A stretch of 64,000 bases of DNA from a virus (IMGVR_UViG_3300045988_133686:32001-96000), one strand, 5' to 3'. Positions 46,745 through 63,973 are shown, counted from the first letter of the stretch. Notes: a model not told the origin generated them from the sequence alone. A program made the numbers and translations.

Positions 46745-46993
46745 TTAGATATCCCAAGTTGGGATATCTCTTTCTGCATCGGAATAAGCCCACCAAGTTT
46801 CGCCGTACTCAAATGACCAAAATGCGCCGTCTTCGGTGTATGCAAAAACATGCTCGGATACTGGGTCTACATCAAGATACGCTCCGGCATAAATTTTGCC
46901 GCTGCGAATGTCCATAACGTACACAGGATTACATAGCCCGCACATGTGCCCCATCGTGATGAGGGTTTGGTATGATAGTGGTTTAATCATCAA
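46745..46993 (-). CDS. hypothetical protein
   Basis: 82 aa. ATGA overlap with the upstream gene. Confidence 0.55.
   Translation of the reverse strand: MMIKPLSYQTLITMGHMCGLCNPVYVMDIRSGKIYAGAYLDVDPVSEHVFAYTEDGAFWSFEYGETWWAYSDAERDIPTWDI
46747..46769. promoter_or_regulatory. 23-bp perfect palindrome AGATATCCCAAGTTGGGATATCT, copy 1
   Basis: 11-bp arms around a single central base. It overlaps the stop of gene 46745..46993 and precedes the 46730 start. Confidence 0.8.
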
Positions 46994-47286
46994 ACCGCCA
47001 CCTCCTGATCCTGAGCTGAGATCGCCAAGGTCACATCTCGCAGCATTAGGTAGTCAATCATGGGGTATCTATCATCGTCATATCTATCGTCTGCGGTTTG
47101 TACGCCGATCATAATGCCTTCGCCAGTATCTACAATTTCGGTGATATACACAAACTCGCAGACTGCATCTGGATCGGTTTTATCTGTCCACAGCCTGACA
47201 ACTTCGTCCTTATGTTTTTCGTGCCACTGTTCAAAAGTCACTTTGATTCCTCCTAAAAAATGTATTGATATCCGGTTATCCACCAA
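46990..47286 (-). CDS. hypothetical protein
   Basis: 98 aa. Packed between the polymerase and downstream small genes. Confidence 0.55.
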   Translation of the reverse strand: MVDNRISIHFLGGIKVTFEQWHEKHKDEVVRLWTDKTDPDAVCEFVYITEIVDTGEGIMIGVQTADDRYDDDRYPMIDYLMLRDVTLAISAQDQEVAV

Positions 47287-50200
47287 TACCCGCTCTTGTC
47301 CTGACGCATATCGCCGCTTCCAACCTCGATAAAGTCTCCTTCTTTGAATGGAAATTGCTCAAATGTGCCGGGGCGAATGCTCACGCGCGCTGTCTTACCG
47401 CTGCCGAGCGATTTGCAGTCCACGCGGTAACACCACACGCTGCCTGTCTTACGACTTGTCAAGCCGATTGGCTTCGACGTGATGATGAGTTTGCCACGGT
47501 CTGCTTTTTGCCCAGTGACCAAATCGACGTAGCCGAGACGTTCCTTTTGTAGGGACGCCTTTTGCTCTAGTGACAAGTCGCGGATGTCAAGCGTGCGTTG
47601 ATGCGCTTCGTATTCGTATAGGATTGCCGGTAGGTCTATTATAGCATAAGATTTGGCTTCTTTTCCCGCCTTGGTCTTATCACTTGCGTGCGGGCGGATA
47701 AATTCTTCATAAATGCCCGCCTTGGTTTTTGCAACACTCTTTGCATCGCCCCACTTGAAGAAGTCCAAGCAGTCAACAATGTTATTAAGCAATGTAATTG
47801 GGCCGAACTCCGCAAAGAAGTCAATGTCGATGAGGGCGGCACGCTGATCTGACCGCAGGCTGGTTTCTTTGGTGCAGGCCAACATAACGTCCGTGAACGT
47901 GTCCCAATGCGGGCGGCTGTGTGCAAGCTCATACAATTCGTTAGGCACAGTCGCATTCAAACTCTTGACGGATGCCACGCCCTTAGTGATAGTGCGCGCC
48001 TCGACGTCCATGAAATAATCGCTCTTGGAATGCCCCCAGCGCGGCGGCAGAATTGGTATCTTGTATGCTCCAGCGAGAGCGGCGCCGTTCGCCACGTCGT
48101 CATCATTGGCAGCGTTGTTCAGCAGCGCGGTGATAAATTCCAGCGGATAATGATAACGCAGATAGGCGCATAAGTAACCTACCATACAGTAAGCTATTGA
48201 ATGGTTAAAACCAAACATGTAACTCGATGCGTCCTCAATAATCTTAATGAATTCTTTTGCTTCGGCTTCCGCTTCCTCGCGCGACTTGTCCGATTTGGCA
48301 CAGTACCCGTCGAGTATCTTGGGCATTGCTTTCTCTAGGATCTCTGGCTTTTTACGGGCAATACCGCGTCGCACAGTGTCAGCTTCACTCCCGCTGAATC
48401 CGCAAATTTCAGTCAGGAACTTAATGACGTCCTCCTGATACACAAGATAACCATTGTTGTCCGCTAGGAGATCATCGATCAGTTTTGACGGGTTATGATG
48501 CTGCTTATGTCCAAGCAAGTCGTCTCGGTATGACGCGCCGGACGGGCGAATACACGCTGTCACCAGTGACATACCGAAGATATTGTGCGGCTTAAACTTT
48601 CGCAAGCTGTCGCCCGCATACGGAGACTCCATTTGGAAGATAGCCGTGGTGTTCCTCCGCATATCCTCCCAAACCTCCGGCTCATCCCAATTAATCTCGT
48701 GTGCTCTCGGATATGGAATACCTACTAACTTGCAAGTATCCGCGATAATCGCCACATTGCGCAAGATCAGGAAATCAAACTTCGCAAGACCCGCTCCATC
48801 ATGAATCTCATCCATGTCGATCTCCAGACATGACATATCGTCTTTGTAGAATGTGCCGAAGTTATCCGTAAGCGTTATGGGCGAGATAACAATACCCGCC
48901 GGATGAACAGACTGCGATACCTTTGTGCCAACCAAGCCATCATAATAATAGAAGAGGTCTTTATACTTTTTCTTCGTCCCGTCCGGATCGACGCTATACT
49001 GCTTCTTGATGTCGTCAACCTTCTTCAGCGAATACGGACACTCCTGCGTGTTCATGTCTGGATGTGCTTTCTGCCATTTGGAGGCTAATGCGCGGCCAAT
49101 ATCATCAATCGCAGCCTTGTCTGCAATGGTGCCGTAAGACGGTACGCGCGCCGTGTATGCTTCACCGAATCTATTGATGATGTATTCGAAGATGCGCGGT
49201 CGGTCGGTATCAATGACGTCAATATCAATATCGCCAATCTCCACGCGATCTTCGTTTGCAAATCGAGAAGCGACTGTTTTCCATATCGTAGGATCAACAT
49301 CTGTAATGTCTGTGATATAGGCAATAGTAGAACCGCACACCGAGCCACGACCTGGCCCAACAGGAATACCATTGTCGCGGCACCAGCAGATCAGCTCACT
49401 CATGATGAGCATAAATCCGCACATGCCGATCTTAGTGAACACCTTCTTTTCGTCCTCGATATTCGCCCGCACCTGGTATAGCCTCTCCGGTGGAATAATA
49501 CCAGCAGCAACCTTCTGCGCCAGCATATCGTCGATGCGCGCGAACCATCGTTCTCTGTCAGCTTCGGCGCTGCCATAAAGAATCGGGTATTTGATGCTCG
49601 GATCAATCGGCACATCCTCTACCATATCAGCCAGCCTATTGGTATTCTCTATCGCTTCGCGCCACTTGTTTTCCGGAATGGCGTCCTGCACGCGGAACAT
49701 CTCAGCTAGTTCATCATAGGATTTATAAGTAAGATCAAACTCGTCCTCCTGCGCAAACTCGATCTTCTTGCTGGCTAACAAGATTTTGCGGCACTCAGCT
49801 TTGTACTGATTCAGTGAGTGTGTATCTGTGCCCGCGATCAGTGGCTTCCCGTACTGTTCGCTCATAAAAAGCAAGCGCTGGTTGTATTTGCTCTGGTCGA
49901 TGTTGTTGTGCGGCTGGATCTCGTAAAAGTCGTAATGCCGCGCCAGTTTTTCGTATATCTTATTATCGCCTTCATATTTGTTGAGCGGTGACGCAAGGCA
50001 AGCACTAATCTTGATAACATTGTCCGAGATGCCAAGAAATTCATCAAACGTAATACGGTTCTTATAATAGAAATGATTCGCGTCCGTTGATGCCATAATC
50101 AGCTTATTGATCTCTTTACGCCCCTGCTTGTTACGGGCAATCAACACTGTGTGGTAATTGTCGCGGATTTTTTCCTCCCCGATTTTCTCGGTTAAATATG

Positions 50201-50426
50201 CTTCGACCCCCCACAGAAACTTGATGCCCTTGCTCTCACAGTACATCTGTTTACGCATCCAGCCGATCGGGCGGCCATGCTCGGTTGAGCCGATCGCCTT
50301 TTGACCAAGCTCAACCGCGCGGTCAACATAATCCTCGAAATGTGTGCAGGAGTCCAGCAAACTGTAATCCGAGTGTACATGGTAAGCAACGTAGTTACTC
50401 AGCTTTATCACCTCCAAATACTTCAT
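47253..50426 (-). CDS. dnaE: DNA polymerase III alpha subunit (DnaE-type, PHP N-terminus)
   Basis: YHVHSDYSLLDS PHP motif and about 1050 aa of colinear DnaE-like sequence. The exact start is uncertain: a GGAGGTGA lies inside the listed 5' end. Confidence 0.9.
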   Translation of the reverse strand: MKYLEVIKLSNYVAYHVHSDYSLLDSCTHFEDYVDRAVELGQKAIGSTEHGRPIGWMRKQMYCESKGIKFLWGVEAYLTEKIGEEKIRDNYHTVLIARNKQGRKEINKLIMASTDANHFYYKNRITFDEFLGISDNVIKISACLASPLNKYEGDNKIYEKLARHYDFYEIQPHNNIDQSKYNQRLLFMSEQYGKPLIAGTDTHSLNQYKAECRKILLASKKIEFAQEDEFDLTYKSYDELAEMFRVQDAIPENKWREAIENTNRLADMVEDVPIDPSIKYPILYGSAEADRERWFARIDDMLAQKVAAGIIPPERLYQVRANIEDEKKVFTKIGMCGFMLIMSELICWCRDNGIPVGPGRGSVCGSTIAYITDITDVDPTIWKTVASRFANEDRVEIGDIDIDVIDTDRPRIFEYIINRFGEAYTARVPSYGTIADKAAIDDIGRALASKWQKAHPDMNTQECPYSLKKVDDIKKQYSVDPDGTKKKYKDLFYYYDGLVGTKVSQSVHPAGIVISPITLTDNFGTFYKDDMSCLEIDMDEIHDGAGLAKFDFLILRNVAIIADTCKLVGIPYPRAHEINWDEPEVWEDMRRNTTAIFQMESPYAGDSLRKFKPHNIFGMSLVTACIRPSGASYRDDLLGHKQHHNPSKLIDDLLADNNGYLVYQEDVIKFLTEICGFSGSEADTVRRGIARKKPEILEKAMPKILDGYCAKSDKSREEAEAEAKEFIKIIEDASSYMFGFNHSIAYCMVGYLCAYLRYHYPLEFITALLNNAANDDDVANGAALAGAYKIPILPPRWGHSKSDYFMDVEARTITKGVASVKSLNATVPNELYELAHSRPHWDTFTDVMLACTKETSLRSDQRAALIDIDFFAEFGPITLLNNIVDCLDFFKWGDAKSVAKTKAGIYEEFIRPHASDKTKAGKEAKSYAIIDLPAILYEYEAHQRTLDIRDLSLEQKASLQKERLGYVDLVTGQKADRGKLIITSKPIGLTSRKTGSVWCYRVDCKSLGSGKTARVSIRPGTFEQFPFKEGDFIEVGSGDMRQDKSGYWWITGYQYIF

Positions 50427-52347
50427 CTAATGGGTCTGGGATTGGATATGCCAGTGGTGATTTATACTCTCCTTTATCCCATCTATACTGGCGCCCGTAC
50501 TCAGCGGGGGTTGTGAAGAACCGCCGTGACGGTACATCGTAAAACATGCCGCAGGAGAAGCCAGCGCGACCGCGCAACCTATCCTTGAGCACCGTGATCT
50601 TCACATCAGACGGGTCTGGTGGGGCGATCATCTGCCCCTTCATATTGTATTTGCCTTCTTTTTCCTGTTTCGTGACGCGCCGCAGTGAGATGGTGCGGTG
50701 CGCAAGGTTAATGATATTACTGCTGCCAGCTAGGTCATATAGGCCGACCTCAGTCCCGGCCATCATCTTGCGTGGGTGTGCCACCAGGATAACCGCAACG
50801 TCGTACTTCATCGCAAACTGAATAAGCTTACTGATCGCTTCCGTCTGTTTTTTCAGTTCGTCATTCGCGCCCGCACCAATGTCAATCGTCATCAGGTTGT
50901 CGAGGATGAGCAGCTTGACTCCGTACTTGCGCACCACATCAGTCATACTGCCGATCAGATCATCCAGCTTGTTGCTATCGTTGTCGTTATAGACGTACCA
51001 CTGGCCACGGTAGTAATCATTCATATCACGCTTAACGCTGGGGTCAACCTTGAAGTAGTGTGCGCCGTTACTATCATAGTGTTCTGTCAGATGGCGCGGA
51101 CCAGCGAGGATATAGCTGAACCAGTTTTTACTCATCCAGCCCGGCAGTTCTCGACTGAACAGCCAGCAGTTATGGCCTGTATCCATGGCGTTACACACGG
51201 TCTGATAAAGAAAGCTCGTCTTACCGGCGCCGGGCATACCGGACACAATCGTGAGCGTCCCGTAAAACAACCTCATGAGTTCTTTATCGATCGCTTCAAT
51301 GCCGAACTGCACGCCGTCAATCTGGTCTAGGTCTACGTCATCGATGTCTGAGAGGTCGGTTACACTTGCAACCGGCGTGTCCTTGGCGTTCAGGATTGCG
51401 GACAGCAAGGCGTCTTTGCCGCCGTAATACAGCACTTCATTCAGATCTTTGACCTTGACGACCTCACCTGTTTCTTTGTTGGTCATCTCCGACGGAATTT
51501 GCACATACTTCGTGCGCCACGATCCAAGTCGGTTGACTACTTCCTTATTCATCTTCTGCCCTGGCTCGTCATTATCGCCAGCCACGATAATACTGTCGAA
51601 CTGCTCAAGGAAATCCCAATTCTCTTCGATCCATGTGAAGTTGTTTGCCCCAAACGGAACGCTTACTGCGTTATGATAACCGGCTTCAATGGCCGCAAGC
51701 GTGTCCATCTCGCCTTCGCAGCACAGTAGCGGAGAATCGGTATTGACGCGATTCATATTAAAAAGGAGCGGGGTTGTGTCCGCTCCTCTTTGTGCCCACA
51801 TCTTTGATTCGCCCGCCGCCTTGTTGATCTTGTGGGACGGCCGGTACTTTACGTTCGTCAAGACGTCGTTCAGGTCATAGTAATTAAACACACAATTCCC
51901 GTGAGCATCTTCCCGCACGTCGGCATAATCTACCGTGCTCTGACTAATACCGCGTGTCTTCATATAACAGTAAACATTCTCTTTGTTATTTAGAGGCTCT
52001 TCATGCGGATATTTGTAATCCCGCTTCGACGGCACTCCTTGCTCCCCAAATACATAGGGGACGTCCGCCGCCTTAAACAGTTCCTGCACAGCATCCAGAA
52101 ACGAGATGTTCTGCCCGCGCATCGCCGCCTCAATAAAGTCAAAAGATGCCCCGCATCCGAAGCACTTGCATCTATGTCTCTTGGTATCGTAGATAAATGA
52201 CGCAGTATCTTCGTGATGTACGGGGCATTTGCATTTCATGCGCGTTTCATCGATCTCGTCAACGTTTAGGAACTTTGTGATAAACAGGAAGTTTTGATCC
52301 CCAAGTTTTTCTTTGGCCTTTTGTATAAGCTCCTTTTCGACCAGCAT
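50395..52347 (-). CDS. bifunctional primase-helicase (CHC2 zinc finger, TOPRIM, DnaB-like P-loop)
   Basis: CKCPVHHEDTASF...CKCFGCGASFD zinc finger, CCEGEMD TOPRIM-like, GMPGAGKTSF Walker A, ILDNL Walker B-like. Start at ATG 52347 after AAGGGAGAAG. Confidence 0.88.
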   Translation of the reverse strand: MLVEKELIQKAKEKLGDQNFLFITKFLNVDEIDETRMKCKCPVHHEDTASFIYDTKRHRCKCFGCGASFDFIEAAMRGQNISFLDAVQELFKAADVPYVFGEQGVPSKRDYKYPHEEPLNNKENVYCYMKTRGISQSTVDYADVREDAHGNCVFNYYDLNDVLTNVKYRPSHKINKAAGESKMWAQRGADTTPLLFNMNRVNTDSPLLCCEGEMDTLAAIEAGYHNAVSVPFGANNFTWIEENWDFLEQFDSIIVAGDNDEPGQKMNKEVVNRLGSWRTKYVQIPSEMTNKETGEVVKVKDLNEVLYYGGKDALLSAILNAKDTPVASVTDLSDIDDVDLDQIDGVQFGIEAIDKELMRLFYGTLTIVSGMPGAGKTSFLYQTVCNAMDTGHNCWLFSRELPGWMSKNWFSYILAGPRHLTEHYDSNGAHYFKVDPSVKRDMNDYYRGQWYVYNDNDSNKLDDLIGSMTDVVRKYGVKLLILDNLMTIDIGAGANDELKKQTEAISKLIQFAMKYDVAVILVAHPRKMMAGTEVGLYDLAGSSNIINLAHRTISLRRVTKQEKEGKYNMKGQMIAPPDPSDVKITVLKDRLRGRAGFSCGMFYDVPSRRFFTTPAEYGRQYRWDKGEYKSPLAYPIPDPLDEVFGGDKAE

Positions 52348-53134
52348 CCGGCGCTTCTCCCTTCTTACTGCGCGGGCACAAATTACCCACAGAACACAGC
52401 GTATCGCAGAAGAAGTCGCCGTGATCTTCTCCTGCCAGTTCAACTTTATCTAAGAATTGTTCGTCGGCGTACATCGCATTAATCGTATCAATGAACCACT
52501 GTTCCGCGGCCTGCATCTCATGCAGATCGAACTTAATTACCTCATGCTGGCGTGCTCGGAACATATTGAACTCCATCTCGATTGGGTACTCCCCATAATT
52601 GTCGAATACCCAACGAGCGTAAAGGTAAAGCTGGAGGGCGTAATGCTTTTTCTCTTCATCGCTCTTAAAAGATCCTTTGCTCTTAAAGTCAACGACCTTA
52701 AAGTGCCCATCCTTGTCACGCAGCAACAAGTCGATGAACCCGATGAATGGACGTCCTTGGATTTCCAACGTAACTTTTATTTCTGCACCAACGACTTCAT
52801 AATCCGCGTAGTCGCCCTCGAACATATCAAAGAACTCTTTGCCGTTCTTGTAATAGCCCGCGCCCATCTTGGCGAATGGAAACGGTGTTGGCACAGCCTC
52901 ATCATATTCAGATTCATAAGCTGCGCTCAACTCATAAAACTCCAACTTATGTGTGTAATACCGCTCAAACAGTGAATGGCACAAGCTCCCCCACTCGGCA
53001 AACGCATTGCTATCCTTATCTGCCTGCTGCAAATACTCCAGATAAAACATCCGCGGGCAAGTGCTGTAAGCATTCACCCGCGAAAAGCTCCACGTCATGC
53101 CGTCAAGGAGAAAATCCTTATCGGCCTTGTTCAT
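52259..53134 (-). CDS. PD-(D/E)XK exonuclease of the Cas4/RecB type with a Cys cluster
   Basis: N-terminal YSTCPRMFYLEY, core GFIDLL...VVDFKS, C-terminal CDTLCSVGNLC. The tail overlaps the primase start by about 89 nt. Confidence 0.78.
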   Translation of the reverse strand: MNKADKDFLLDGMTWSFSRVNAYSTCPRMFYLEYLQQADKDSNAFAEWGSLCHSLFERYYTHKLEFYELSAAYESEYDEAVPTPFPFAKMGAGYYKNGKEFFDMFEGDYADYEVVGAEIKVTLEIQGRPFIGFIDLLLRDKDGHFKVVDFKSKGSFKSDEEKKHYALQLYLYARWVFDNYGEYPIEMEFNMFRARQHEVIKFDLHEMQAAEQWFIDTINAMYADEQFLDKVELAGEDHGDFFCDTLCSVGNLCPRSKKGEAPDAGRKGAYTKGQRKTWGSKLPVYHKVPKR

Positions 53135-53136
53135 TT

Positions 53137-53487
53137 TTAGAACGGCAGCTCGTCTTCATGTACACCAGCGGCGGGAGCAGCAGGCTTCGACGCGGCGTTG
53201 CGAGGAGCAGTTTCCTCGAAAGAGTACATGGTGTAATTGGTGTACAGCTTGCCCTTTTCCTTATCATATTTATTAGTCACGGCAAAGTCACCGACTTTGA
53301 TGCGTGAGCGGGCAGGTAGTTCAGCGATACGCCTGGCGTCTCCGGCCAGTGTTACCCAATCGCTCCAATCCTGTACATAATCATCGGAATCCTTAACCTT
53401 GCGCCTGGTGGACATACGCGCCTCAATAAATCCGTTGTGCTCACGGGTTTCCCAAACGGTGGCATACGCATTGACTCTCATGCTCAT
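53137..53487 (-). CDS. ssb: single-stranded DNA-binding protein
   Basis: 116 aa, OB-fold-like N-terminus, Pro/Ala linker and an acidic tip ending HEDELPF (the DDDLPF-type tail). Confidence 0.82.
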   Translation of the reverse strand: MSMRVNAYATVWETREHNGFIEARMSTRRKVKDSDDYVQDWSDWVTLAGDARRIAELPARSRIKVGDFAVTNKYDKEKGKLYTNYTMYSFEETAPRNAASKPAAPAAGVHEDELPF

Positions 53488-53489
53488 AA

Positions 53490-54257
53490 TTACTTATCCT
53501 CTTTCTTCAGTTCATCAATAAGTTTCATAACCTTTTCGCAGTCTGCAACAGAGGTCAGCGAGTTGGGGTTCGCACTCTTACACACTTTCTTGCAACATGC
53601 GAACACTCTGTCCTTGCCGAGTTCTTCGGACTTTTCCTTCATATAAGCCAATACCTCGGCACGCTTGTCTGCCAATTCCTTACTGACTTCTTCGCCTTTG
53701 TTTCTACCGCCGGTTTTACCAGCCGCCGTGTTGCCGTCATCATCTGCTTCGCCATGCGTCGCCAGAATAGGATTAATAGCGCCGCGGCGTGCATATGTAA
53801 GTGCTGCAATGACGCCCTGCGCGTCTCTCTTGGTAGTCGGCACACCAAACGGCGGGTATACCATGACGCCGCCCTCACCGTGCATCAGGATTGTCTGGGC
53901 GTAAATAAATCCATCATCACCATTGATAGGCACTTGCGTCAGACCAAGGTTATACTTCGACAATACGGGGCGGGTCGCATTCAATACTTCGTCAAGCGGT
54001 GTGTACTTAGACTGGGTAAAGGGATTCAGCTTTGTTGTGGTCGGGTTCTGAACCTCTCCGATGTATTTTACGAAGTCACGCAACATCGCAGTGCGCTGCT
54101 CGTCAGTGCCGTAAAATCGGATATTGTTCTCGGCCGCAAGTTCAGTAAACCTAGGCTCGTACCAAGTCAGTTCGTCCTCAAATGCGGTCTGCGGTTCATC
54201 GTTCGTAGCTTCGTTTACGGGTTCAACGGTCAATTCGTTTTTCATCTCTTCACTCAT
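53490..54257 (-). CDS. erf: Erf-family single-strand annealing protein
   Basis: KYTPLDEVLNATRPVLSKYNLGLTQ...ALTYARRGAI pattern. Adjacent to ssb and the nuclease. Confidence 0.7.
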   Translation of the reverse strand: MSEEMKNELTVEPVNEATNDEPQTAFEDELTWYEPRFTELAAENNIRFYGTDEQRTAMLRDFVKYIGEVQNPTTTKLNPFTQSKYTPLDEVLNATRPVLSKYNLGLTQVPINGDDGFIYAQTILMHGEGGVMVYPPFGVPTTKRDAQGVIAALTYARRGAINPILATHGEADDDGNTAAGKTGGRNKGEEVSKELADKRAEVLAYMKEKSEELGKDRVFACCKKVCKSANPNSLTSVADCEKVMKLIDELKKEDK

Positions 54258-54347
54258 AAAAAATCTCCTTTTGTTTTATAGGCACGGAAATAAACCGCAC
54301 CTGGAGGTGATCGGTACATATTCATTTATCTCACTCCTTGTGTCTGT

Positions 54348-54356
54348 ATTATACCA
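54348..54356 (-). promoter_or_regulatory. extended -10 promoter TGGTATAAT upstream of erf-ssb
   Basis: The minus strand reads CATGTGGTATAATACAGAC. Palindrome copy 2 is centred about 60 nt upstream of the predicted start site. Confidence 0.5.
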
Positions 54357-54389
54357 CATGAGGTTGGCTGTGTGTGGGCATATAAGAAA

Positions 54390-54412
54390 AGATATCCCAA
54401 GTTGGGATATCT
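54390..54412. promoter_or_regulatory. 23-bp perfect palindrome AGATATCCCAAGTTGGGATATCT, copy 2
   Basis: Identical to copy 1. It overlaps the stop of the FNT-like gene. Confidence 0.8.
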
Positions 54413-55013
54413 AAATCAAATAACGATGGACAGTTCTTGCGCCAAGAGTGTTGCCAAGCAGCGCCGCGAAAAAGAACAGCGGTGCGCGCCACCAAGTTAT
54501 ATCCGCTACCGGAACACACAACATATAATAGAAGAAATCGGCAATACTGTGCTCAAATCCGGAGAGAATAAAAGTTGTTACGCAAAAGGTAATGATGAGA
54601 ATCTTGCCAGCCGTATCGGTGGCCGACATCGAAGCTCGAACGGCTGTATACATTAGCACGCCACAGCAATACGCTTGAGAAAAGACGACCACCCACGACT
54701 TTGTGAGTTTTGCTTGGACGAGCGGCAATGCCACGCATGTGATATCCTCATTGGTTGCGTTCACAAGGATAGCACACGCCACCGCTCCGCAGCAGTTTCC
54801 AAGTAGAATCCAAAATACATCTTCCCAATCTTGCTTATGCTCGACAAAGCCAATACTTCCTGTGAAAAGTTTCGCCCCGGTCAATACAATGCTATTAAGG
54901 GCAATAGAAAAGAGCACTGCCGCAAGAATCGGTTGCTCTTTGAAAAGCGTGAGATAAATAGTGCCTCCGATACCAATGAATAGGCCGCCGATCACGCCGC
55001 GCTTAATCATCAT
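54411..55013 (-). CDS. formate/nitrite transporter (FNT) family-like channel protein
   Basis: GFEHSIADF (FNT GFEHSIAN signature) and VLTGAKLFTGS (FNT signature-1-like). Multiple TM segments. Start at ATG 55013 (GGGGAG RBS). 200 aa. Confidence 0.7.
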   Translation of the reverse strand: MMIKRGVIGGLFIGIGGTIYLTLFKEQPILAAVLFSIALNSIVLTGAKLFTGSIGFVEHKQDWEDVFWILLGNCCGAVACAILVNATNEDITCVALPLVQAKLTKSWVVVFSQAYCCGVLMYTAVRASMSATDTAGKILIITFCVTTFILSGFEHSIADFFYYMLCVPVADITWWRAPLFFFAALLGNTLGARTVHRYLI

Positions 55014-55314
55014 AAGACTCCCCACTGACAATCTTTGTAAGCAATTCCCAGTCGCATTTTGAGTTGAGCCATTTAGTGAAGCAAGCGGCACAATCATTGT
55101 TTGTCTTTGACGCGCAGTTAACATCCAAACTCCCAGGCGGACATCCAAAGTTACACAAAAACTCCGCCAGTGCTTCAGGTGTTAGCACAGCTAAGGCATA
55201 GCGGTATGTTTTGTCGGAAGAGTCATACAAAATTCCGTCCTGCCGAAAGGTGTCTACCGCCGCGTTCCAACCATCAATCCAATCCTGTGTATGATATGTC
55301 CTTTTCTCAACCAT
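55003..55314 (-). CDS. hypothetical protein
   Basis: 103 aa. Its start faces the divergent promoter region at 55315-55374. Confidence 0.6.
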   Translation of the reverse strand: MVEKRTYHTQDWIDGWNAAVDTFRQDGILYDSSDKTYRYALAVLTPEALAEFLCNFGCPPGSLDVNCASKTNNDCAACFTKWLNSKCDWELLTKIVSGESYDD

Positions 55315-56681: not shown

Positions 56682-56700
56682 TGTACTAAGACCTCCTCAA

Positions 56701-56946: not shown

Positions 56947-56948
56947 TC

Positions 56949-57331: not shown

Positions 57332-57351
57332 TTTCCTCCTGCATATTTAAT

Positions 57352-57576
57352 TTATAGAATTGTTGGATATCTTATTTCGTATGTTGCGTACGCACCAGTT
57401 TCTTCACACCGAACCTCAATGAACTGCGGCCATTTCTCATATGGGTTATATTGTTTACAAGGTATAATTTTCAAGTTAGCAAAATGACTTTGCTCACACT
57501 CTTCGCAATCACTCTTATCGCTGTATATAGCGCCGCATATCTCACAAACATATTTTGTTTCTACTTTCATCAACAT
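57352..57576 (-). CDS. zinc-ribbon protein
   Basis: RBS aaggag. CEICG...CEECE motif. 74 aa. Confidence 0.6.
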   Translation of the reverse strand: MLMKVETKYVCEICGAIYSDKSDCEECEQSHFANLKIIPCKQYNPYEKWPQFIEVRCEETGAYATYEIRYPTIL

Positions 57577-57649
57577 TCATCTCCTTAATCTCTTTATTAA
57601 CTATTATAGACCAGTACGGCAATAATCTTGGCGCTGAACTCATAAATAT

Positions 57650-58036
57650 TCAAACGTTCCTGACATCTTCCGTCCTGCGCGCCAGCATAATTCGATCATT
57701 GGCGGCCTTGGTCTGCAAGCTGCCATTTTCGTAACGAGCAATGGCATTATCATCCTCTCCAACCATACGAGCAAATGCAACTTGCGAAATGCCGTATTGT
57801 TCACGGATGGCCTTGATTTCTTCTGGCTGCAAAAGCCCGTGGCGACTGCGATATTTTGCATAGGCTTTACGGAGATTGTCATCATCGTATTCTTCGGTCA
57901 TGATTTCCTCACCACAATGCGCGCACGTGCAAACGGTTGCATCAATGGTGAATGGCTCTCCTCTCACAAGATATGTTTCTTCTTTCTGGACAAGAAGCAT
58001 CTCTTGTTCACAGTTACAGACGGGACAATACTTCAT
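57650..58036 (-). CDS. MqsA-like protein: YgiT-type zinc finger plus XRE HTH (regulator/antitoxin family)
   Basis: CPVCNC...CTCAHCGEE zinc finger, then IKAIREQYGISQVAFARMVGEDDNAIARYENG HTH. Confidence 0.72.
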   Translation of the reverse strand: MKYCPVCNCEQEMLLVQKEETYLVRGEPFTIDATVCTCAHCGEEIMTEEYDDDNLRKAYAKYRSRHGLLQPEEIKAIREQYGISQVAFARMVGEDDNAIARYENGSLQTKAANDRIMLARRTEDVRNV

Positions 58037-58346: not shown

Positions 58347-58365
58347 TAAATAATACCCCCCTAAT

Positions 58366-58626: not shown

Positions 58627-58646
58627 ACTTATTCTCCCTATGACCA

Positions 58647-58937: not shown

Positions 58938-58969
58938 TTACCATTCCTACAAAAAGTCTCTTTACGATC

Positions 58970-59350: not shown

Positions 59351-59372
59351 GTGTTTTCCTTCCCTACTACTG

Positions 59373-60029: not shown

Positions 60030-60077
60030 CCCTGTTATTTAATATTTCTTACTGCCATCATTTTATCGCAACGATGT

Positions 60078-61067
60078 TTACTTCCAAAACCCAGCCCTAT
60101 CGTTACTAAAATCCGCACCTACAATCCCGCCATGCTTTGCCAACACCCCATCTACCAGCTCAACTGGCACATAACCATATACCGTATCACATGGCCGCTC
60201 TTTATCTTCTGCATAATCTATCAGCTCAAAATCTTCATCACTGGGATAACCGAGTTCGACTTTATCAAAATGATCCGCATCTGCTCTCGGAGAACAGTAA
60301 TGATATTCACCAGCTTGCACCGACACCGTATACCCATCCGTACACTTTACACGTGGGCGAACGACTTGTATGCCATTACAACACTGCTTTCGGTATTTTC
60401 GCAAAAAATCATTGATGTTCATGCTATGCTGCTGCTCCTTTTCTCTCTTCGCATCGCTTTCTTTAAGCATTAGAGGCAATACCGCCTCTGCGTAAGCACA
60501 CGCCGCTATATACTGCGCCTCATAGATCGTGCCGCCATGTACACTCTTGACGCGCGCCTTAAACTCATCCATACCGCTAAACCAGCACCCCGCGCGGACA
60601 AACATTGCTCCATCCTTATCGATGTAAAAGTATGCCGTCCTATGCGCACTGCCGATATTGCCAATTTGCACATACAGACCGTCCAGCACACGCCCGCCCT
60701 CGAACGTTGCACGCACGTCAATACACTTGCCCAGCACGCACCCGTCGCCCAGCTTGCAGCCGTTTCCCAGCACGCACCCGTCGCCCAGCTTGCAGCCGTT
60801 TCCAAGCTCGCACCCGTCGCCCAACTCGCACCCGAAGCCCAGCGCACACCAGTCACCCAGCTTACACCCGTCGCCCAGCTTGCACCAGTTGCCCAGCTTG
60901 CAGCCAACGCTCAATACGCAGCAGTTGCCCAGCGTGCAGCAGTTGCCGAAGATTACCCTGTCCGCCGCACCAAAGTCGATCTCAGTGCAGTCCGTGTATT
61001 CAGGGATTATCAAATAACCATCCTTGCGCTTCAGTGCGTCAAACTCCGCTTGTGTCATCTTACGCAT
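60078..61067 (-). CDS. Cys-containing hexapeptide-repeat (left-handed beta-helix-like) protein with an unknown C-terminal domain
   Basis: RBS GGAGGA before ATG 61067. About 13 consecutive six-residue units of LG(D/N)(G/W)C(K/E/V). Confidence 0.72.
   Translation of the reverse strand: MRKMTQAEFDALKRKDGYLIIPEYTDCTEIDFGAADRVIFGNCCTLGNCCVLSVGCKLGNWCKLGDGCKLGDWCALGFGCELGDGCELGNGCKLGDGCVLGNGCKLGDGCVLGKCIDVRATFEGGRVLDGLYVQIGNIGSAHRTAYFYIDKDGAMFVRAGCWFSGMDEFKARVKSVHGGTIYEAQYIAACAYAEAVLPLMLKESDAKREKEQQHSMNINDFLRKYRKQCCNGIQVVRPRVKCTDGYTVSVQAGEYHYCSPRADADHFDKVELGYPSDEDFELIDYAEDKERPCDTVYGYVPVELVDGVLAKHGGIVGADFSNDRAGFWK
60729..60950. repeat. 18-bp tandem repeat array (about 12 units) encoding the hexapeptide repeats; includes a perfect 36-bp duplication
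   Basis: The plus strand reads GCCCAGCACGCACCCGTC GCCCAGCTTGCAGCCGTT TCCCAGCACGCACCCGTC GCCCAGCTTGCAGCCGTT, and so on. The array generates spurious long ORFs in several frames. Confidence 0.85.
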
Positions 61068-61389
61068 TTTTGTCCTCCATTTTCGCGCCGCAGTTTGGAC
61101 AGAATTTAGGCAACCAATTAGTATACGCATCCGCGTAGCGGCATACCGGACACGTCACAAGACGTCTGCCGTCGTGTAGCAGCAGAACGTCCCACTGGTA
61201 TTCCTGCACCGCCTGTAAGTCAACCGTTGCAAACTTTTCAACCATCTCTGTCACAATATCAAACACATCTAACTCACGTGGTAGAGATATAATGTCAAAG
61301 TCGTTCAAATCCCGCTCGCTCCGGTATTGACTTTTGCGCTCTTGGATTGCATTGTGTAGTCTATATTTATCAATATACTTAGATTCCAT
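61060..61389 (-). CDS. hypothetical protein with C-terminal zinc ribbon
   Basis: CPVCRYADAYTNWLPKFCPNCG. 109 aa. Confidence 0.6.
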   Translation of the reverse strand: MESKYIDKYRLHNAIQERKSQYRSERDLNDFDIISLPRELDVFDIVTEMVEKFATVDLQAVQEYQWDVLLLHDGRRLVTCPVCRYADAYTNWLPKFCPNCGAKMEDKNA

Positions 61390-61426
61390 ATTAGCTATTC
61401 CTCCCTGTGCCTTTCAATGCTTTCTC

Positions 61427-61846
61427 TCATGCTCTTACTTCATCCCAACCTAACAACTCTTTCGCAACCCTTATTGCGTTTTCTATATTACAGGCCGGAG
61501 CTGCGTTAGCTGCCTTCGCCAACTGCAACACCGCCAGCAACTCATGATATTCGCGCAAATTAAAACGACCGTGCTTGTTTCGTCGCACGGCCGCCAACCA
61601 TTCCTGATAATCACTTTGGTCTTCTGATGTTAATGGAAATCCGGTTTCAGATTCTATTCCCAATTTCGAGAGCGTGAATTGATCGTCAATCTTGAGATCA
61701 CCGTCACCAGATTCCCATACCGTTGTTATCTGTGTTTCTATTATATCATGTTCTACATCTCTCGTAATAACACCCGGCGGCACATCCGTGATATGCTTGA
61801 TAATTTCGCGTACTTGCTCGTCTGTCACGGAAACAAATGTCAGCAT
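61427..61846 (-). CDS. hypothetical protein
   Basis: 139 aa. Its ATG immediately follows a TAG stop of a possible upstream micro-ORF. Confidence 0.6.
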   Translation of the reverse strand: MLTFVSVTDEQVREIIKHITDVPPGVITRDVEHDIIETQITTVWESGDGDLKIDDQFTLSKLGIESETGFPLTSEDQSDYQEWLAAVRRNKHGRFNLREYHELLAVLQLAKAANAAPACNIENAIRVAKELLGWDEVRA

Positions 61847-61936
61847 CTACTCTCCCCCTACAGCCACAATAATGTTTACTATCAATGCCGCGGCGAGCAG
61901 AAAGACACCCGCCGCCATATAAATAACAAGTCCCAC
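61847..61936 (-). CDS. possible 29-aa membrane micro-protein (GTG start)
   Basis: GGAGGA plus 6 nt before GTG 61936. (M)GLVIYMAAGVFLLAAALIVNIIVAVGGE. Its stop abuts the next ATG. Confidence 0.25.
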   Translation of the reverse strand: MGLVIYMAAGVFLLAAALIVNIIVAVGGE

Positions 61937-61988
61937 CGGCAATCCTCCATAATAAAGAGCCGCTGTGTTCCCACAACGGCCCAATCCA

Positions 61989-63164
61989 TTACGCTACTCT
62001 CAGTCTGCCCGCAGTATAAACGAAATTCGCAATCGCCGTATCGACCTCCGCGGCTCTTTGTTTCAATTCAGAACTCACAATGCCCTTCATCATACTTTGC
62101 AGTGCTTCCTTCGCATTGCTCATCGTCTTACACGCGTTATCGATACTGGACAGCTCCCGCACCTTCGCCTGAAGTGCCTTGTTTTCTTCCTGCAAGCGCT
62201 GCATCTCGTTCGCTTGAGCGTCCGGGTCTTCCGGCAGCTTATCTTCCAGTTCTACGATCTTCTGACGCAACTCAGGAATCTCACTCAGCGCCTTGTTCTT
62301 TTCGCGCAGGTGATCCTTGAGCTGGGCAATGCTGATCTTGTACTTGCGGATTTCCTCCTGCATCTGCACGATACTCTCAACATCGTCACCACCGCGCCCT
62401 TCCTCCAGAGCATCACAGCGCTGCACCATGCGCTCCAGACGATCCTCGAACTCACTGGCCTCCGCGTTCAGTCGCTCAATCTCGGCATCCTTGTCGCGCA
62501 CCGTCTGGATCAGTTCTTTGATTTTCGCCTCGGAAACCTTATCGTCACCTTCGGGTACCGCGTCAGCCACCTCGCGCTGCTGTTCGGCAGGCAAAGATGC
62601 GATTGCGATCAAGCCAGAAGCGCTCACTCGATTTCCAATTTCGTTTCCAACTTCGTCATCAAGTGCGGCCAACTTATCCAGGCGACCCACTGCCGAACGC
62701 GACGTGTGGAGATCTTCGCACATATCGTTGATGTTGCGGTACATACCGATAGGCGACCGCTTACTGTCCTCGCTTGCGCCATGACCGCGATTGCCGTACA
62801 AGCGGCGCAACTCATTCAGCACTCTCGCCTGCTGATATACCGGCAGCCCACTCAGCCCGCCGCGGCTCATCACGTTGCTGGCGAGCAGATCGTACAGCAT
62901 CATATCATCGTTATCATAGTCGCGCACCTGACACTGAATCTGCTCGTAGCCACAAGTAATTGCTGCCCGCACTCTGCGATGCCCAGAGACAATCACGCCG
63001 GTCGAGCTTACCAGCGGCATATCGATAATGCCGCGTTCACGCACAGAGGTTAGAAACTCCTCATCGTCTGCGACCGCAGGGAAAAAGTAATCATTGCGGG
63101 GATGTGACGTCAGTTCATTAGGGTTGAGTACCATAATCGTAGAGGGTACATTAATAAGCTGCAT
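61989..63164 (-). CDS. ParB/Srx N-terminal domain protein with a long coiled-coil C-terminus
   Basis: LTSHPRNDYFF...VIVSGHRRVRAA (the ParB-type GHRR box), then a Glu/Lys-rich coiled coil. Confidence 0.78.
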   Translation of the reverse strand: MQLINVPSTIMVLNPNELTSHPRNDYFFPAVADDEEFLTSVRERGIIDMPLVSSTGVIVSGHRRVRAAITCGYEQIQCQVRDYDNDDMMLYDLLASNVMSRGGLSGLPVYQQARVLNELRRLYGNRGHGASEDSKRSPIGMYRNINDMCEDLHTSRSAVGRLDKLAALDDEVGNEIGNRVSASGLIAIASLPAEQQREVADAVPEGDDKVSEAKIKELIQTVRDKDAEIERLNAEASEFEDRLERMVQRCDALEEGRGGDDVESIVQMQEEIRKYKISIAQLKDHLREKNKALSEIPELRQKIVELEDKLPEDPDAQANEMQRLQEENKALQAKVRELSSIDNACKTMSNAKEALQSMMKGIVSSELKQRAAEVDTAIANFVYTAGRLRVA

Positions 63165-63238
63165 GATTGACTCCTCCTTCGTTTACAGAACTGGTGTTCT
63201 CTCTATAGTGGTATTATACAGCACATATGTTCCCGTTG

Positions 63239-63454
63239 TCAATGATATTTTTCCTCACCTCCCGTCTGGTCCGGGAACACAATATAGATACTCAAGTGTA
63301 GCGCTCGACATATCGCGTAAGCCACCGGCACAGTTGGGTCGCAATATCCATTTTCCAATTTGGACAAATGCCCAACGCTAACCCCGCAGCGTCTCGCCAA
63401 CGCCCGCAATGTAATGTCTCGCTCGTAGCGGATAGATCCAAGATTATTTTTCAT
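63239..63454 (-). CDS. XRE-family HTH transcriptional regulator
   Basis: ITLRALARRCGVSVGHLSKLENG. 71 aa. A TGcTAAAAT -10 lies upstream on the minus strand. Confidence 0.8.
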   Translation of the reverse strand: MKNNLGSIRYERDITLRALARRCGVSVGHLSKLENGYCDPTVPVAYAICRALHLSIYIVFPDQTGGEEKYH

Positions 63455-63538
63455 GATCTCAGTCTGCCCGCCCGGCGATTCTTGATTCCTTTAAGTGATT
63501 CCAATTTTAGCATAAAGCTTGTTTCTTATGGGAAACAC

Positions 63539-63922
63539 TTAACCTATTTTAACACGCCGTCTTCTCATAATTTCGAAACTGGACACCGCCGCTCCAACCT
63601 CAAGTGGCTCATAGCAGAATACTCGTAGGAACCCATTTGGAGTGCAATCAATTACCCAATTTTGCTCCAGATTATCTCTTTTCCAGTTTCCAATCCCATC
63701 TAGGTGTAGTGCATCGGAGCACCCGCCCATACGGCATACTGCATGGCCTTTGTTACATGCAGCAAATGTCATGTTACCCCACCCACTATCGTGTATCGAC
63801 CTTATGTCGGTCGGATAAATAATCACGCTATCAAACGCTGGTGCTTCCTCTTGGCTGTACGGCGTCCAATACGGCAAATTCTCGAAATCGTCCATGGTCA
63901 TTCTCATAATATCCGTTTCCAT
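63539..63922 (-). CDS. hypothetical protein
   Basis: GGAGGG plus 5 nt before ATG 63922. Palindrome copy 3 lies 29 nt upstream. Confidence 0.6.
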   Translation of the reverse strand: METDIMRMTMDDFENLPYWTPYSQEEAPAFDSVIIYPTDIRSIHDSGWGNMTFAACNKGHAVCRMGGCSDALHLDGIGNWKRDNLEQNWVIDCTPNGFLRVFCYEPLEVGAAVSSFEIMRRRRVKIG

Positions 63923-63950
63923 ATCTTCCCTCCAAATGTAATCCAATGTC

Positions 63951-63973
63951 AGATATCCCAACTTGGGATATCT
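63951..63973. promoter_or_regulatory. 23-bp palindrome AGATATCCCAACTTGGGATATCT, copy 3 (central base inverted)
   Basis: Same 11-bp arms as copies 1 and 2. Confidence 0.8.

What the first reader, a model, noticed from the sequence alone, without database searches (positions are those of the whole stretch)
46747..63973. A perfect 23-bp palindrome repeated three times at gene boundaries of the early/replication arm
AGATATCCCAAGTTGGGATATCT has 11-bp arms around one central base. It occurs at 46747-46769, 54390-54412 and, with the centre inverted, at 63951-63973. Three identical 23-mers in 64 kb cannot be chance.

All three copies lie at the junction between the stop of one minus-strand gene and the 5' region of the next. 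They sit 16, 133 and 29 nt upstream of the start codons. Copy 2 is centred about 60 nt upstream of the start site predicted from an extended -10 promoter (TGTGGTATAATA), which is an activator-like position. None has a U-tail, so they are not canonical terminators.

Candidate roles are operators for a dimeric phage regulator (XRE 63239-63454, the MqsA-like protein, or the ParB-like protein as a parS/KorB-type site), RNA hairpins for processing, or replication/partition sites. A degenerate half-site, GTTGGATATCT, lies at about 57360.
Basis: seen in the sequence. Interest (0 to 1): 0.7.

Follow-up and report, generated by a model that had tools for sequence, protein, structure and literature searches.

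The report
Phage ParB-like protein's probable binding sites
Three identical 23-base palindromes in this gut phage are real, are strictly conserved in its relatives, and are most likely the DNA docking sites of the phage's own partner-less ParB-like protein; the same core sequence also turns up, unexplained, inside ORF6N genes of many unrelated bacteria.

Summary
AGATATCCCAA[G/C]TTGGGATATCT occurs exactly three times (46747, 54390, 63951), against zero expected, and there are no degenerate extra copies.

About 17 orthologous sites in related 100-kb gut-phage contigs show one arm substitution. The flanks differ by about 3%. The centre base flips G<->C at every site.

More distant relatives encode a ParB-like protein only 37-41% identical. 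They keep GATATCCC-N5-GGGATATC at the same two places: upstream of the ParB-like gene block and upstream of the ERF/replication operon. Spacing is fixed and the centre is free. In two clades the sites form 36-bp tandem arrays or overlap the -35 position. One clade with a different recognition helix carries a different 23-bp palindrome at that place.

The ParB-like protein is the only DNA-binding candidate seen next to the site in every clade sampled. It has ParB boxes I-III, an HTH and a coiled coil, and its model matches ParB, Noc and KorB. The XRE and MqsA-like proteins are not seen across the clades.

Best reading (about 0.5): KorB/VirB-like loading or operator sites of an orphan ParB. Main rival: an RNA hairpin or terminator, since copy 2 and some relatives have a U-tract.

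Unexplained: the same 21-bp core lies in frame in ORF6N genes across phyla, where the palindrome is family-wide and its arms covary.

The parts
46747..46769 (.). Palindrome copy 1. On the gene (minus) strand it encodes the last 8 codons and overlaps the TAA of the 82-aa ORF 46745-46993. It lies 16 nt before the ATG at 46730 and downstream of the DnaE module.
   Evidence: orthologous copies in L002, L044, L048, L064, L109
54390..54412 (.). Palindrome copy 2. It overlaps the TAG of the FNT-like gene, is followed by TTTTCTTATAT, and lies 36 nt upstream of the -10 of the ERF-operon promoter.
   Evidence: orthologues in L003, L042-L048, L062, L109, L200
63951..63973 (.). Palindrome copy 3. It lies 1 nt after the TAA of the Bro-N/ANT gene and 28 nt before the ATG of the 127-aa gene, at the head of the block 127aa-XRE-ParB-like.
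61989..63164 (-). Orphan ParB-like gene (391 aa): ParB-CTPase N-domain (boxes I-III, SGHRRVRAA), an HTH and a long C-terminal coiled coil. Proposed binder of the palindrome.
   Evidence: Pfam ParB_N 26.8 bits; alignment invariants; PHROG ParB-like; AF2 model pLDDT 77; Foldseek top 19 hits all ParB/Noc/KorB/Spo0J
63213..63242 (-). Consensus promoter TTGACA-18-TATAAT directly upstream of the ParB-like gene.
   Evidence: similar sequence in L200
61957..61982 (-). GC-rich intrinsic terminator right after the ParB-like gene. It shows what a canonical terminator looks like in this phage.
54348..54358 (-). Extended -10 promoter TGTGGTATAAT of the ERF / PD-(D/E)XK / primase-helicase / DnaE operon, downstream of copy 2.
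   Evidence: conserved in all relatives
46745..54325 (-). Replication/recombination operon bracketed by copies 2 and 1: 23-aa mini-ORF, ERF, 116 aa, PD-(D/E)XK, primase-helicase, DnaE, 98 aa, 82 aa.
63975..64000 (-). 3' end of the Bro-N/KilAC (ANT) antirepressor-type gene that precedes copy 3. The gene runs off the window.
   Evidence: L046:6917-7693

Best explanation
The three palindromes are cis-acting docking sites (parS- or operator-like dyads) for the phage's own orphan ParB-like protein.

The protein dimerises through its coiled coil. Each helix-turn-helix reads one GGGATATC half-site; the two half-sites are held 5 bp apart. By analogy with KorB of plasmid RK2 and VirB of Shigella, binding probably involves nucleotide-dependent clamping and sliding. 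It would then control the early arm of the genome: the block that contains its own gene (copy 3), the ERF/replication operon and its promoter (copy 2), and the distal end of that operon (copy 1).

Shown here: the sites, their conservation, the co-occurrence with the ParB-like gene, and the fold of the protein.

Inferred: that this protein binds them, and what binding does (repression or roadblock versus genome organisation).
For: 1. Purifying selection or homogenisation. There is 1 arm substitution in about 17 distinct orthologous sites (374 arm positions), while the flanks differ by about 3%. The centre base is G or C at every site and never A or T, so function does not depend on orientation.

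2. Conservation beyond alignable DNA. In phages whose ParB-like protein is 37-41% identical, GATATCCC-N5-GGGATATC recurs with fixed spacing and a free centre. It lies just upstream of the genes leading to the ParB-like gene (L100, L196, L198, L194, L197). It also lies upstream of ERF (L194, L197, L200).

3. Operator-like layouts. L197 has three tandem copies with a 36-bp period. L194 has a second, imperfect dyad 36-37 bp upstream. The ERF-upstream sites in L194 and L197 end 21-22 nt before TATAAT, which is the -35 position.

4. One case of co-variation. The P0009 clade has recognition helix SRTTVCRALTI instead of SRSxxGRAxxI. It carries a different perfect 23-bp palindrome, CGTTAATCCAAATTGGATTAACG, at the equivalent position.

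5. The ParB-like protein is the only DNA-binding candidate found with the site in all clades. XRE and the 127-aa protein have no homologues elsewhere, and MqsA-like is in one clade only.

6. The protein has boxes I-III and an HTH, and its model matches ParB, Noc, KorB and Spo0J over about 200-230 columns. Wider homologues carry PF17762 HTH_ParB.

7. From my own knowledge, not checked here: KorB operators are also odd palindromes with a G/C centre, scattered at varying distances from promoters.
Against: - No binding data exist.
- The Pfam ParB_N score is marginal (26.8 against a cut-off of 26.3).
- There is no ParA partner and no ParA-interaction motif.
- The site spans 21-23 bp, longer than classical parS.
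- Copies 1 and 3 are not near promoters.
- In several contexts the flanks extend the stem and a T-tract follows (copy 2, L001, L196/L198). This fits an RNA hairpin.
- The co-variation rests on one short contig.
- The same 21-bp core occurs in ORF6N genes, and near XRE and HigBA promoters, in organisms where no ParB-like gene of this family was found nearby. This model does not explain that.
- ERF, primase and DnaE also co-occur with the site, so co-occurrence alone is not specific.
Confidence: 0.5

Rival explanations
1. The palindrome acts as an RNA hairpin in the early transcripts. It would be an intercistronic terminator or attenuator, or a 3'/5' stabiliser, marking the ends of transcription units.
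For: - All copies lie at gene 3' ends.
- The hairpin alone (centroid structure) is predicted at about -14 kcal/mol; the 63-nt segments fold at -14.8 to -15.1.
- Copy 2 is flagged as terminator-like.
- L196/L198 have GGTT...AACC plus TTATTTTTT.
- L001 adds CGGAG/CTCCG and a U-rich tail, and L035 extends to 15-bp arms.
- L194:8811 is fully paired on the sense strand only through a G-U wobble.
- A related ORF6N-type palindrome sits between convergent genes with A and T tracts in unrelated phages.
Against: - Copies 1 and 3 have no U-tract, and copy 1 lies in coding sequence.
- Real terminators in this phage are GC-rich with T-tails.
- A structural hairpin does not need a stem sequence kept across phages with unalignable intergenic DNA, nor a fixed 21-bp span with a free centre.
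- Tandem arrays (L197) and sites overlapping the -35 position do not fit terminators.
- Several family sites have arm mismatches.
Confidence: 0.2
2. The palindrome is an instance of a wider, undescribed class of CAA-N-TTG-centred palindromes shared with ORF6N ('Bro network') genes. It would act at the DNA or hairpin level, as a recombination or module-boundary hotspot or as a self-propagating palindrome, or it would be read by an unknown common factor.
For: - The exact 21-mer occurs in 65 loci, found in two separate scans (genomes and metagenomes) of which some loci duplicate each other, across many phyla. Most are in frame in ORF6N genes, or just 3' or 5' of them.
- The palindrome is family-wide in ORF6N, with covarying arms.
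- Homology between relatives breaks at or near the palindrome. L042 diverges from the window 17 nt after copy 3. L001 has both flanks unique. Four Bacteriovorax loci diverge right after it.
- Rapid centre flipping shows DNA-level template switching or gene conversion.
Against: - No ORF6N gene was detected in the window or in relatives.
- ORF6N hosts are unrelated to gut Clostridia.
- No chimerism of ORF6N genes at the palindrome was seen.
- Distant phage relatives conserve the outer arms, whereas ORF6N conserves the inner part. The overlap may therefore hold only for this clade; I estimate the chance of coincidence at about 1e-4 to 1e-3.
- No mechanism is known.
Confidence: 0.12
3. The palindrome is the operator of another regulator: the XRE protein (63239-63454), the MqsA-like protein (57650-58036), the Bro-N/ANT protein, or a host factor.
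For: - XRE lies 500 bp from copy 3.
- In unrelated loci the same 21-mer sits at the +1 of a promoter divergent from an XRE gene (L054) and 26 nt upstream of higB in a HigBA module (L084).
- Bro-N genes flank sites in the window, L001, L072 and L087.
Against: - The window XRE has no similarity to the L054 XRE and no homologue in the other clades that keep the site.
- MqsA-like is found only in the L035 clade.
- Bro-N/ANT is absent from the L194, L196, L197 and L198 loci.
Confidence: 0.1
4. The palindromes are replication elements: an origin, or primosome or primase-helicase loading hairpins flanking the replication module.
For: Copies 2 and 1 bracket the ERF / primase-helicase / DnaE operon.
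Against: - There are no AT-rich unwinding regions or iterons beside the sites.
- GC skew shows no inflection at them.
- Copy 3 and the L001-type site lie outside the module.
- The sites are single and isolated.
Confidence: 0.03

Closest known systems
KorB and its OB operators on plasmid RK2 (with the KorA partner)
   Same: A ParB-family protein (CTPase N-domain plus HTH) acts as a global regulator. It binds an odd palindrome with a G/C centre (TTTAGCSGCTAAA), present in several copies at varying distances from promoters, including its own operon. The KorB structure 8qa9 is among the fold hits. The details of the operators come from my own knowledge and PMC11790492.
   Different: KorB has a ParA partner (IncC) and a KorA co-repressor, and its site is 13 bp. 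Here there is no ParA, the C-terminus is a roughly 190-aa coiled coil, the site is 21-23 bp, and there are only 3-4 copies, mostly at gene 3' ends. No biochemistry has been done.
VirB of Shigella: an orphan ParB-like, CTP-dependent transcription regulator
   Same: A ParB-like protein without a ParA partner binds a parS-like inverted repeat and acts on transcription from a distance (PMC10653881).
   Different: VirB counteracts H-NS silencing on a virulence plasmid. Nothing of that kind is known here. Sequence similarity is limited to the fold.
Chromosomal or plasmid ParB-parS and Noc-NBS
   Same: The fold is shared: the top Foldseek hits are Myxococcus, Caulobacter and Bacillus ParB and Noc. 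Boxes I-III are present, and the palindromic sites are dispersed, with one close to the gene.
   Different: There is no ParA and no LG[KR]GL motif. The C-terminal domain differs. The site is longer, with a free 5-bp centre in distant relatives. The setting is a phage early region.
Intrinsic (Rho-independent) terminators
   Same: A stem-loop at the end of genes. Copy 2 and the L196/L198 sites have a following T-tract.
   Different: Two of the three copies lack the T-tract. The stem sequence is conserved across deeply diverged phages. Relatives show tandem arrays and sites overlapping promoters.
In-frame palindrome of ORF6N (PF10543) genes, described here and not found in the searched literature
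   Same: The 21-bp core GATATCCCAA-N-TTGGGATATC is identical. The centre base toggles between complementary bases, and the flanks often extend the palindrome.
   Different: In ORF6N genes it encodes L-I-S-Q-[IF]-G-I-S inside the gene and the inner bases are the conserved ones. In the phage it lies outside any ORF6N gene and the outer arms are the conserved ones.
Mycobacteriophage L5 'stoperators'
   Same: Repressor sites at gene boundaries that could block elongation.
   Different: Stoperators are asymmetric 13-14-mers, number about 20-30 per genome, depend on orientation, and bind an unrelated repressor (from my own knowledge).

Membership tests
ParB/KorB/Noc family (the protein 61989-63164) | N-terminal ParB-CTPase fold with box I, box II (GxRRxRA) and box III | tested here: met
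   Pfam ParB_N scores 26.8 bits against a cut-off of 26.3. Invariant residues are R44-G45-I46-I47..M49-P50, S60-G61-H62-R63-R64..A68 and S96-N97..S100-R101-G102-G103. A PDB profile search hits Caulobacter ParB at E 8e-4. The top 19 Foldseek hits are all ParB family.
ParB/KorB/Noc family (the protein) | Central helix-turn-helix DNA-binding domain after the N-domain | tested here: met
   The model has helices 145-152, 156-167 and 170-176. Foldseek alignments span 186-264 columns of ParB, Noc and KorB chains that include the DNA-binding domain. Wider homologues carry PF17762 HTH_ParB. This is prediction only.
ParB/KorB/Noc family (the protein) | C-terminal dimerisation domain | tested here: inconclusive
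   Residues 212-390 are predicted as long helices or a coiled coil. This is not the canonical ParB C-domain. Dimerisation is plausible but not shown.
ParABS partition system | Adjacent ParA ATPase and an N-terminal ParA-interaction motif LG[KR]GL | tested here: not met
   No ParA-type gene appears in the called genes within +/-10 kb in any relative. The N-terminus MQLINVPSTIMV has no such motif.
ParB-parS / KorB-OB (the site) | Palindromic site present in several copies, one close to the parB-like gene, co-occurring with the protein | tested here: met
   There are 3-4 sites per genome. One lies upstream of the ParB-like gene block in all five clades. The dyad was found in every clade's ParB-like contig (L200 and L194-L198 among those fetched through the protein), plus an alternative palindrome in L201.
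ParB-parS / KorB-OB (the site) | Direct, sequence-specific binding of the protein to the site; CTP-dependent clamping | not testable with these tools
   Needs EMSA, ChIP-seq and CTP-binding assays.
Intrinsic terminator | Stable stem-loop immediately followed by a U-tract on the transcribed strand | tested here: not met
   The stem is present in all copies. A T-tract follows only copy 2 on the gene strand (TTTTCTTATAT). Copy 1 is followed by AACAAAGGG and copy 3 by GACATTGG.
Operator of the neighbouring XRE or MqsA-like regulator | Regulator conserved together with its operator in relatives | tested here: not met
   XRE has no homologue in the L100, L194-L198, L200 or L201 loci. MqsA-like is found only in L035/L089.
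ORF6N in-frame palindrome | Located inside an ORF6N-domain gene at the L-x-S-Q-x-x-x-S codons | tested here: not met
   A local ORF6N HMM finds no hit in the window or in L042-L048. Copy 1 is read in the DIPTWDI frame of an unrelated 82-aa ORF.
CRISPR solitary repeat / RNA anti-CRISPR | Repeat of 28-37 nt matching a host CRISPR repeat | not tested
   The conserved unit is only 21-23 bp and its flanks are not conserved. No CRISPR comparison was run.

The most novel reading that the evidence does not exclude
The phage palindrome belongs to an undescribed, cross-phylum class of conserved dyad or hairpin elements centred on CAA-N-TTG. The class is embedded in frame in essentially all ORF6N ('Bro network') genes, where the arms covary even at the cost of amino-acid changes. 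It also occurs as free-standing copies at gene junctions, promoters and terminator-like positions in unrelated phages and bacteria. That would imply either a common trans-acting reader or a hairpin-driven copy-and-correct mechanism that spreads and maintains these palindromes.
Probability: 0.2. Interest if true: 0.85.

Novelty: new variant of a known kind. Interest (0 to 1): 0.6.

Why it matters
Orphan ParB-CTPase proteins are common in phages and other mobile elements, but what they do is largely unknown (survey in PMC12704722). This case offers a defined protein family paired with a defined 21-23-bp site and a simple map: 3-4 sites at operon boundaries of the early/replication arm. That makes the question directly testable. 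Does a phage ParB act as a KorB/VirB-like long-range regulator, a roadblock, or a genome organiser?

Separately, ORF6N genes across phyla carry a conserved, covarying in-frame palindrome, and the same sequences occur free-standing in phages. I found no description of this in the searched literature. It may point to a cis element, or to a mutational mechanism, acting inside a widespread family of antirepressor-type genes.

Tried and rejected
- A megablast of 10 kb against INPHARED phages found nothing. DnaE tblastn reached at best 44% identity.
- An exact scan of IMG/VR found one related contig only. A relaxed 17-mer scan gave mostly unrelated single hits plus L023.
- DnaE-based relatives at 48-57% identity (L036-L041) lack the motif, but their loci do not reach the ParB-like region, so they are uninformative.
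- The window XRE has no similarity to the XRE next to the L054 site.
- Bro-N/ANT as the binder was rejected: it is absent from the L194-L198 loci.
- Rfam shows nothing at the sites. GC skew has no inflection there.
- ORF6N has no PDB relative.
- ORF6N genes show no chimerism at the palindrome and no enriched neighbouring family and no ParB.
- A ParB-like profile scan of IMG/VR returned only the one known contig.
- A scan for the L201 palindrome in IMG/VR gave unrelated hits.
- Very distant ParB-like loci (L209-L211) show no repeated palindrome. They have only single small ones, including one inside the gene about 380 nt from its start in two loci.
- A look-up of the 127-aa protein found no record.
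- CRISPR-repeat mimicry, an N4-type hairpin promoter, a protelomerase site, dif, and DnaA, HipB, FNR and matS boxes were compared from memory. They were set aside because spacing or sequence does not fit.

Full report
**1. The observation**

The 23-mer AGATATCCCAA-N-TTGGGATATCT is present at 46747-46769, 54390-54412 and 63951-63973. The centre is G, G and C on the plus strand. No other match appears even with three mismatches, and none appears in shuffled sequence. The flanks of the three copies share nothing, so the repeat is the palindrome itself. A relaxed scan for GATATCCC-N5-GGGATATC with up to four mismatches adds only chance-level hits. The 'half-site' near 57360 has two mismatches, as do 22 other places in the window, so I do not count it as a site.

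All genes in this arm are on the minus strand.
- Copy 1 lies inside the last eight codons and the stop of an 82-aa ORF. It is 16 nt before the next start.
- Copy 2 overlaps the TAG of a formate/nitrite-transporter-like gene and is followed by TTTTCTTATAT. Thirty-six nt further on is the -10 of the extended promoter TGTGGTATAAT, which drives a 23-aa mini-ORF and ERF.
- Copy 3 follows the TAA of a Bro-N/KilAC antirepressor-type gene that runs off the window. It is 28 nt before a 127-aa gene.

**2. What the phage is**

The window holds a tail/structural arm on the plus strand and an early/replication arm on the minus strand. The early arm encodes:
- DnaE-type polymerase, primase-helicase, a PD-(D/E)XK nuclease and ERF;
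- an MqsA-like protein, an XRE protein and a ParB-like protein;
- four tRNAs.

It has no close relative among deposited phages. Near-identical contigs of 95-110 kb occur in human-gut metagenomes. One of them (ERZ28594631 scaffold_106) carries identical copies of two of the window's proteins, in the same gene order, and is probably the source of the window.

**3. Conservation among close relatives**

All relatives keep the three sites at the same gene junctions. One genome (OIZT01000039, which is also IMG/VR 128406) has a fourth site. That site follows a helicase and a 211-aa gene, in a region with no similarity to the window.

Among about 17 distinct orthologous sites there is a single arm substitution, while the flanks differ by about 3%. 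The centre base is polymorphic G/C at every one of the four positions and is never A or T. Two things follow.
- The arms are under strong constraint, or are homogenised.
- The centre is flipped by a DNA-level process, either a template switch in the hairpin or gene conversion between copies in either orientation. Function therefore does not depend on orientation.

Homology between relatives sometimes ends close to the palindrome. L042 diverges from the window 17 nt after copy 3, and the transporter gene upstream of copy 2 is deleted in some genomes.

**4. Conservation among distant relatives (the key evidence)**

A phage with 65%-identical DnaE carries GTTTCGATATCCCAACTTGGGATATCGAAAC. This lies in the 3' part of a non-orthologous kinase-like gene downstream of DnaE.

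Homologues of the ParB-like protein at 37-41% identity lead to four further clades. In all of them the dyad GATATCCC-N5-GGGATATC recurs. The span is fixed at 21 bp and the centre is not conserved (AANTT, GCACT, GCGCT, GCGGT, ATCGT, AGGTT). It recurs at the same two kinds of place.
- Upstream of the small genes that lead to the ParB-like gene: L100, L196, L198, L194, L197.
- Upstream of ERF: L194, L197, L200.

In L197 three copies stand in tandem with a 36-bp period. In L194 a second, imperfect dyad lies 36-37 bp upstream. The ERF-upstream sites of L194 and L197 end 21-22 nt before a TATAAT, so they overlap the -35 position.

In L201 the ParB-like recognition helix reads SRTTVCRALTI instead of SRSxxGRAxxI. 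There the equivalent position holds a different perfect 23-bp palindrome, CGTTAATCCAAATTGGATTAACG.

The XRE and 127-aa proteins next to copy 3 have no homologues in the other clades. The MqsA-like protein is found in only one of them, and Bro-N/ANT is absent from several.

**5. The protein**

The 391-aa protein has:
- the three ParB-CTPase boxes, including SGHRRVRAA;
- a conserved SPIG...M..L..SR....R helix-turn-helix;
- a long C-terminal coiled coil.

Sequence evidence is modest. Pfam ParB_N just passes its cut-off. PHROGs calls it ParB-like. A PDB profile search hits Caulobacter ParB weakly.

The structural evidence is clearer. The AlphaFold model (pLDDT 77) has as its best 19 structural neighbours only ParB, Noc, Spo0J, pNOB8 ParB and KorB, aligned over N-domain and DNA-binding domain. 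A wider family of about 870 proteins shares the N-domain plus HTH, and its members often carry PF17762 HTH_ParB.

There is no ParA gene and no ParA-interaction motif. The gene is a unit of its own, with a consensus promoter and a GC-rich terminator.

**6. Best explanation**

The palindromes are docking sites of this orphan ParB-like protein, working like KorB operators or the VirB site.
- Shown: sites, constraint, co-occurrence, positional conservation, and the fold of the protein.
- Inferred: binding, nucleotide-dependent clamping, and the effect on the early operons.

I put this at about 0.5.

**7. Rivals**

*RNA hairpin (0.2).* The position at gene ends fits. So do the T-tract after copy 2 and in L196/L198, the extra stem pairs in L001, L035 and L100, and one sense-strand G-U wobble. 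Against it: two copies lack a U-tract; the stem sequence is kept where everything around it has diverged; the centre is free at fixed spacing; and tandem and promoter-overlapping layouts occur.

*Another regulator (0.1).* This is disfavoured by the lack of conservation of those proteins.

*A replication element (0.03).* This has no support.

**8. The unexplained link to ORF6N genes**

Scanning genomes and metagenomes for GATATCCCAA-N-TTGGGATATC gave 27 and 38 loci, against about one expected by my estimate. Some of the loci duplicate each other between the two scans. They come from many phyla.

Most hits lie in frame in about 173-aa ORF6N-domain genes, where the sequence encodes L-I-S-Q-[IF]-G-I-S. 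ORF6N genes that were not selected by this sequence also carry a palindrome at the same codons, with different, covarying arms. Examples are TTGAGGTCACAA-N-TTGTGACCTCAA, a TCG/GCG variant, and ATGTCATCACAATTTGTGATGACAT.

In the 27 distinct sequences from a search of viral contigs that did not fix the codons, the third base of the Ser codon pairs with the second base of the V/G/A codon in 27 of 27 cases. Across both samples there are three pair types.

Free-standing copies also exist:
- directly 3' of ORF6N genes in four Bacteriovorax genomes, where homology ends at the palindrome;
- 5' of ORF6N genes (L055, L063, L106);
- at the +1 of a promoter beside an XRE gene (L054);
- 26 nt upstream of higB (L084).

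The commonest ORF6N variant occurs 12 times outside ORF6N genes in unrelated phages, mostly in terminator-like settings.

ORF6N genes have no constant neighbours and no ParB nearby. The phage has no detectable ORF6N gene.

Distant phage relatives conserve the outer arms, whereas ORF6N conserves the inner bases. The identity may therefore be a coincidence limited to this clade; I estimate that chance at 1e-4 to 1e-3. It may also reflect a shared reader, or a hairpin-driven copy-and-correct process. Template-switch 'quasipalindrome correction' could produce the covariation without selection. I found no paper on this.

**9. Verdict**

This is a real, strongly constrained cis element. It is best read as the binding site of an orphan phage ParB-like protein, a new variant of the ParB-parS / KorB-operator kind, with an RNA-hairpin role not excluded. 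Interest is moderate to high. It pairs an uncharacterised but widespread class of phage proteins with a concrete site, and it exposes an unexplained palindrome shared with ORF6N genes.

Noticed in passing
L049-L113 and L114-L193 (ORF6N genes); e.g. L058:644-664, L065:2714-3223, L177, L189: ORF6N-domain genes (PF10543) of many phyla carry a perfect or near-perfect in-frame palindrome at the L-x-S-Q-x-x-x-S codons. The arms covary (TCA-GTG, TCC-GGG, TCG-GCG; AGG-ACC, AGA-ATC, ATA-ATA), which changes amino acids while keeping the palindrome. The centre toggles A/T, giving Ile or Phe.
   Followed up: partly
L212, L214-L219, L223-L226, L233: The commonest ORF6N palindrome, GAGGTCACAA-N-TTGTGACCTC, occurs 12 times outside ORF6N genes in unrelated IMG/VR phages. 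Most copies lie between convergent or tandem genes with A-tract and T-tract flanks, which looks terminator-like. There is one copy per contig.
   Followed up: partly
L056:980-1000, L059:871-891, L061:5213-5233, L065:2679-2699: In four Bacteriovorax-type genomes the exact phage-type palindrome sits 12-15 nt after the stop of a conserved ORF6N gene whose own internal palindrome is a different variant. Homology between the four loci ends at the palindrome. L059 has a tRNA gene next to it, and L065 has a second solo palindrome (TTTGAGGTCACAAATTGTGACCTCAAA) 170 nt further on.
   Followed up: partly
window 54411-55148 (-): A formate/nitrite-transporter-family gene (Pfam E 6e-32) sits in the phage early arm. 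About 530 bp of it is deleted in the 97%-identical relative L003, and it is variably present in other relatives. It may be an auxiliary metabolic gene or moron.
   Followed up: partly
window 54254-54325 (-): A 23-aa mini-ORF (MNMYRSPPGAVYFRAYKTKGDFL) has a strong RBS. Its stop overlaps the ERF start (ATGA), between the promoter and ERF. It is conserved in relatives, and a 33-aa gene is called there in L043.
   Followed up: no
window 45478-45855 (-): Cluster of four tRNA genes: Thr-TGT, Thr-CGT, Met-CAT, Gln-TTG.
   Followed up: yes
window 61957-63242 (-): The ParB-like gene is a self-contained unit, with a perfect TTGACA-18-TATAAT promoter whose -35 overlaps the end of the XRE gene, and a GC-rich terminator right after the stop.
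   Followed up: partly
window 63239-63454 (-): The XRE ORF has a clear HTH_3 domain (E 1e-10) but is missing from the called-gene lists of all related contigs in the collection.
   Followed up: no
L042-L047, upstream of the window's end (e.g. L042:2086-7686): Relatives carry Fic-like, AAA_23/AAA_21 and RloB (OLD-like) genes and, in some, a small Phage_integrase gene just beyond the window end. This may be a defence or anti-defence cargo region.
   Followed up: no
L071:2040-2180, L111, L113: Ktedonobacter-type loci have the 21-mer next to two copies of another palindrome (GTAGGAAATATCCTAC / GTAGGAACTTTCCTAC) in one intergenic region.
   Followed up: no
L209:10380-10398 and L210:10381-10401: Two very distant ParB-like genes each contain a small palindrome about 380 nt into the gene (CTTCCAACAATGTTGGAAG; CAATCCGCAAGTTGCGGATTG). 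L209 and a third locus, L211, have TnpB/OrfB_IS605 genes nearby.
   Followed up: no
window 46151-46468 (-): A stand-alone 105-aa protein consists only of the NAD+-ligase N-terminal Ia domain (Nlig-Ia, E 1e-24).
   Followed up: no
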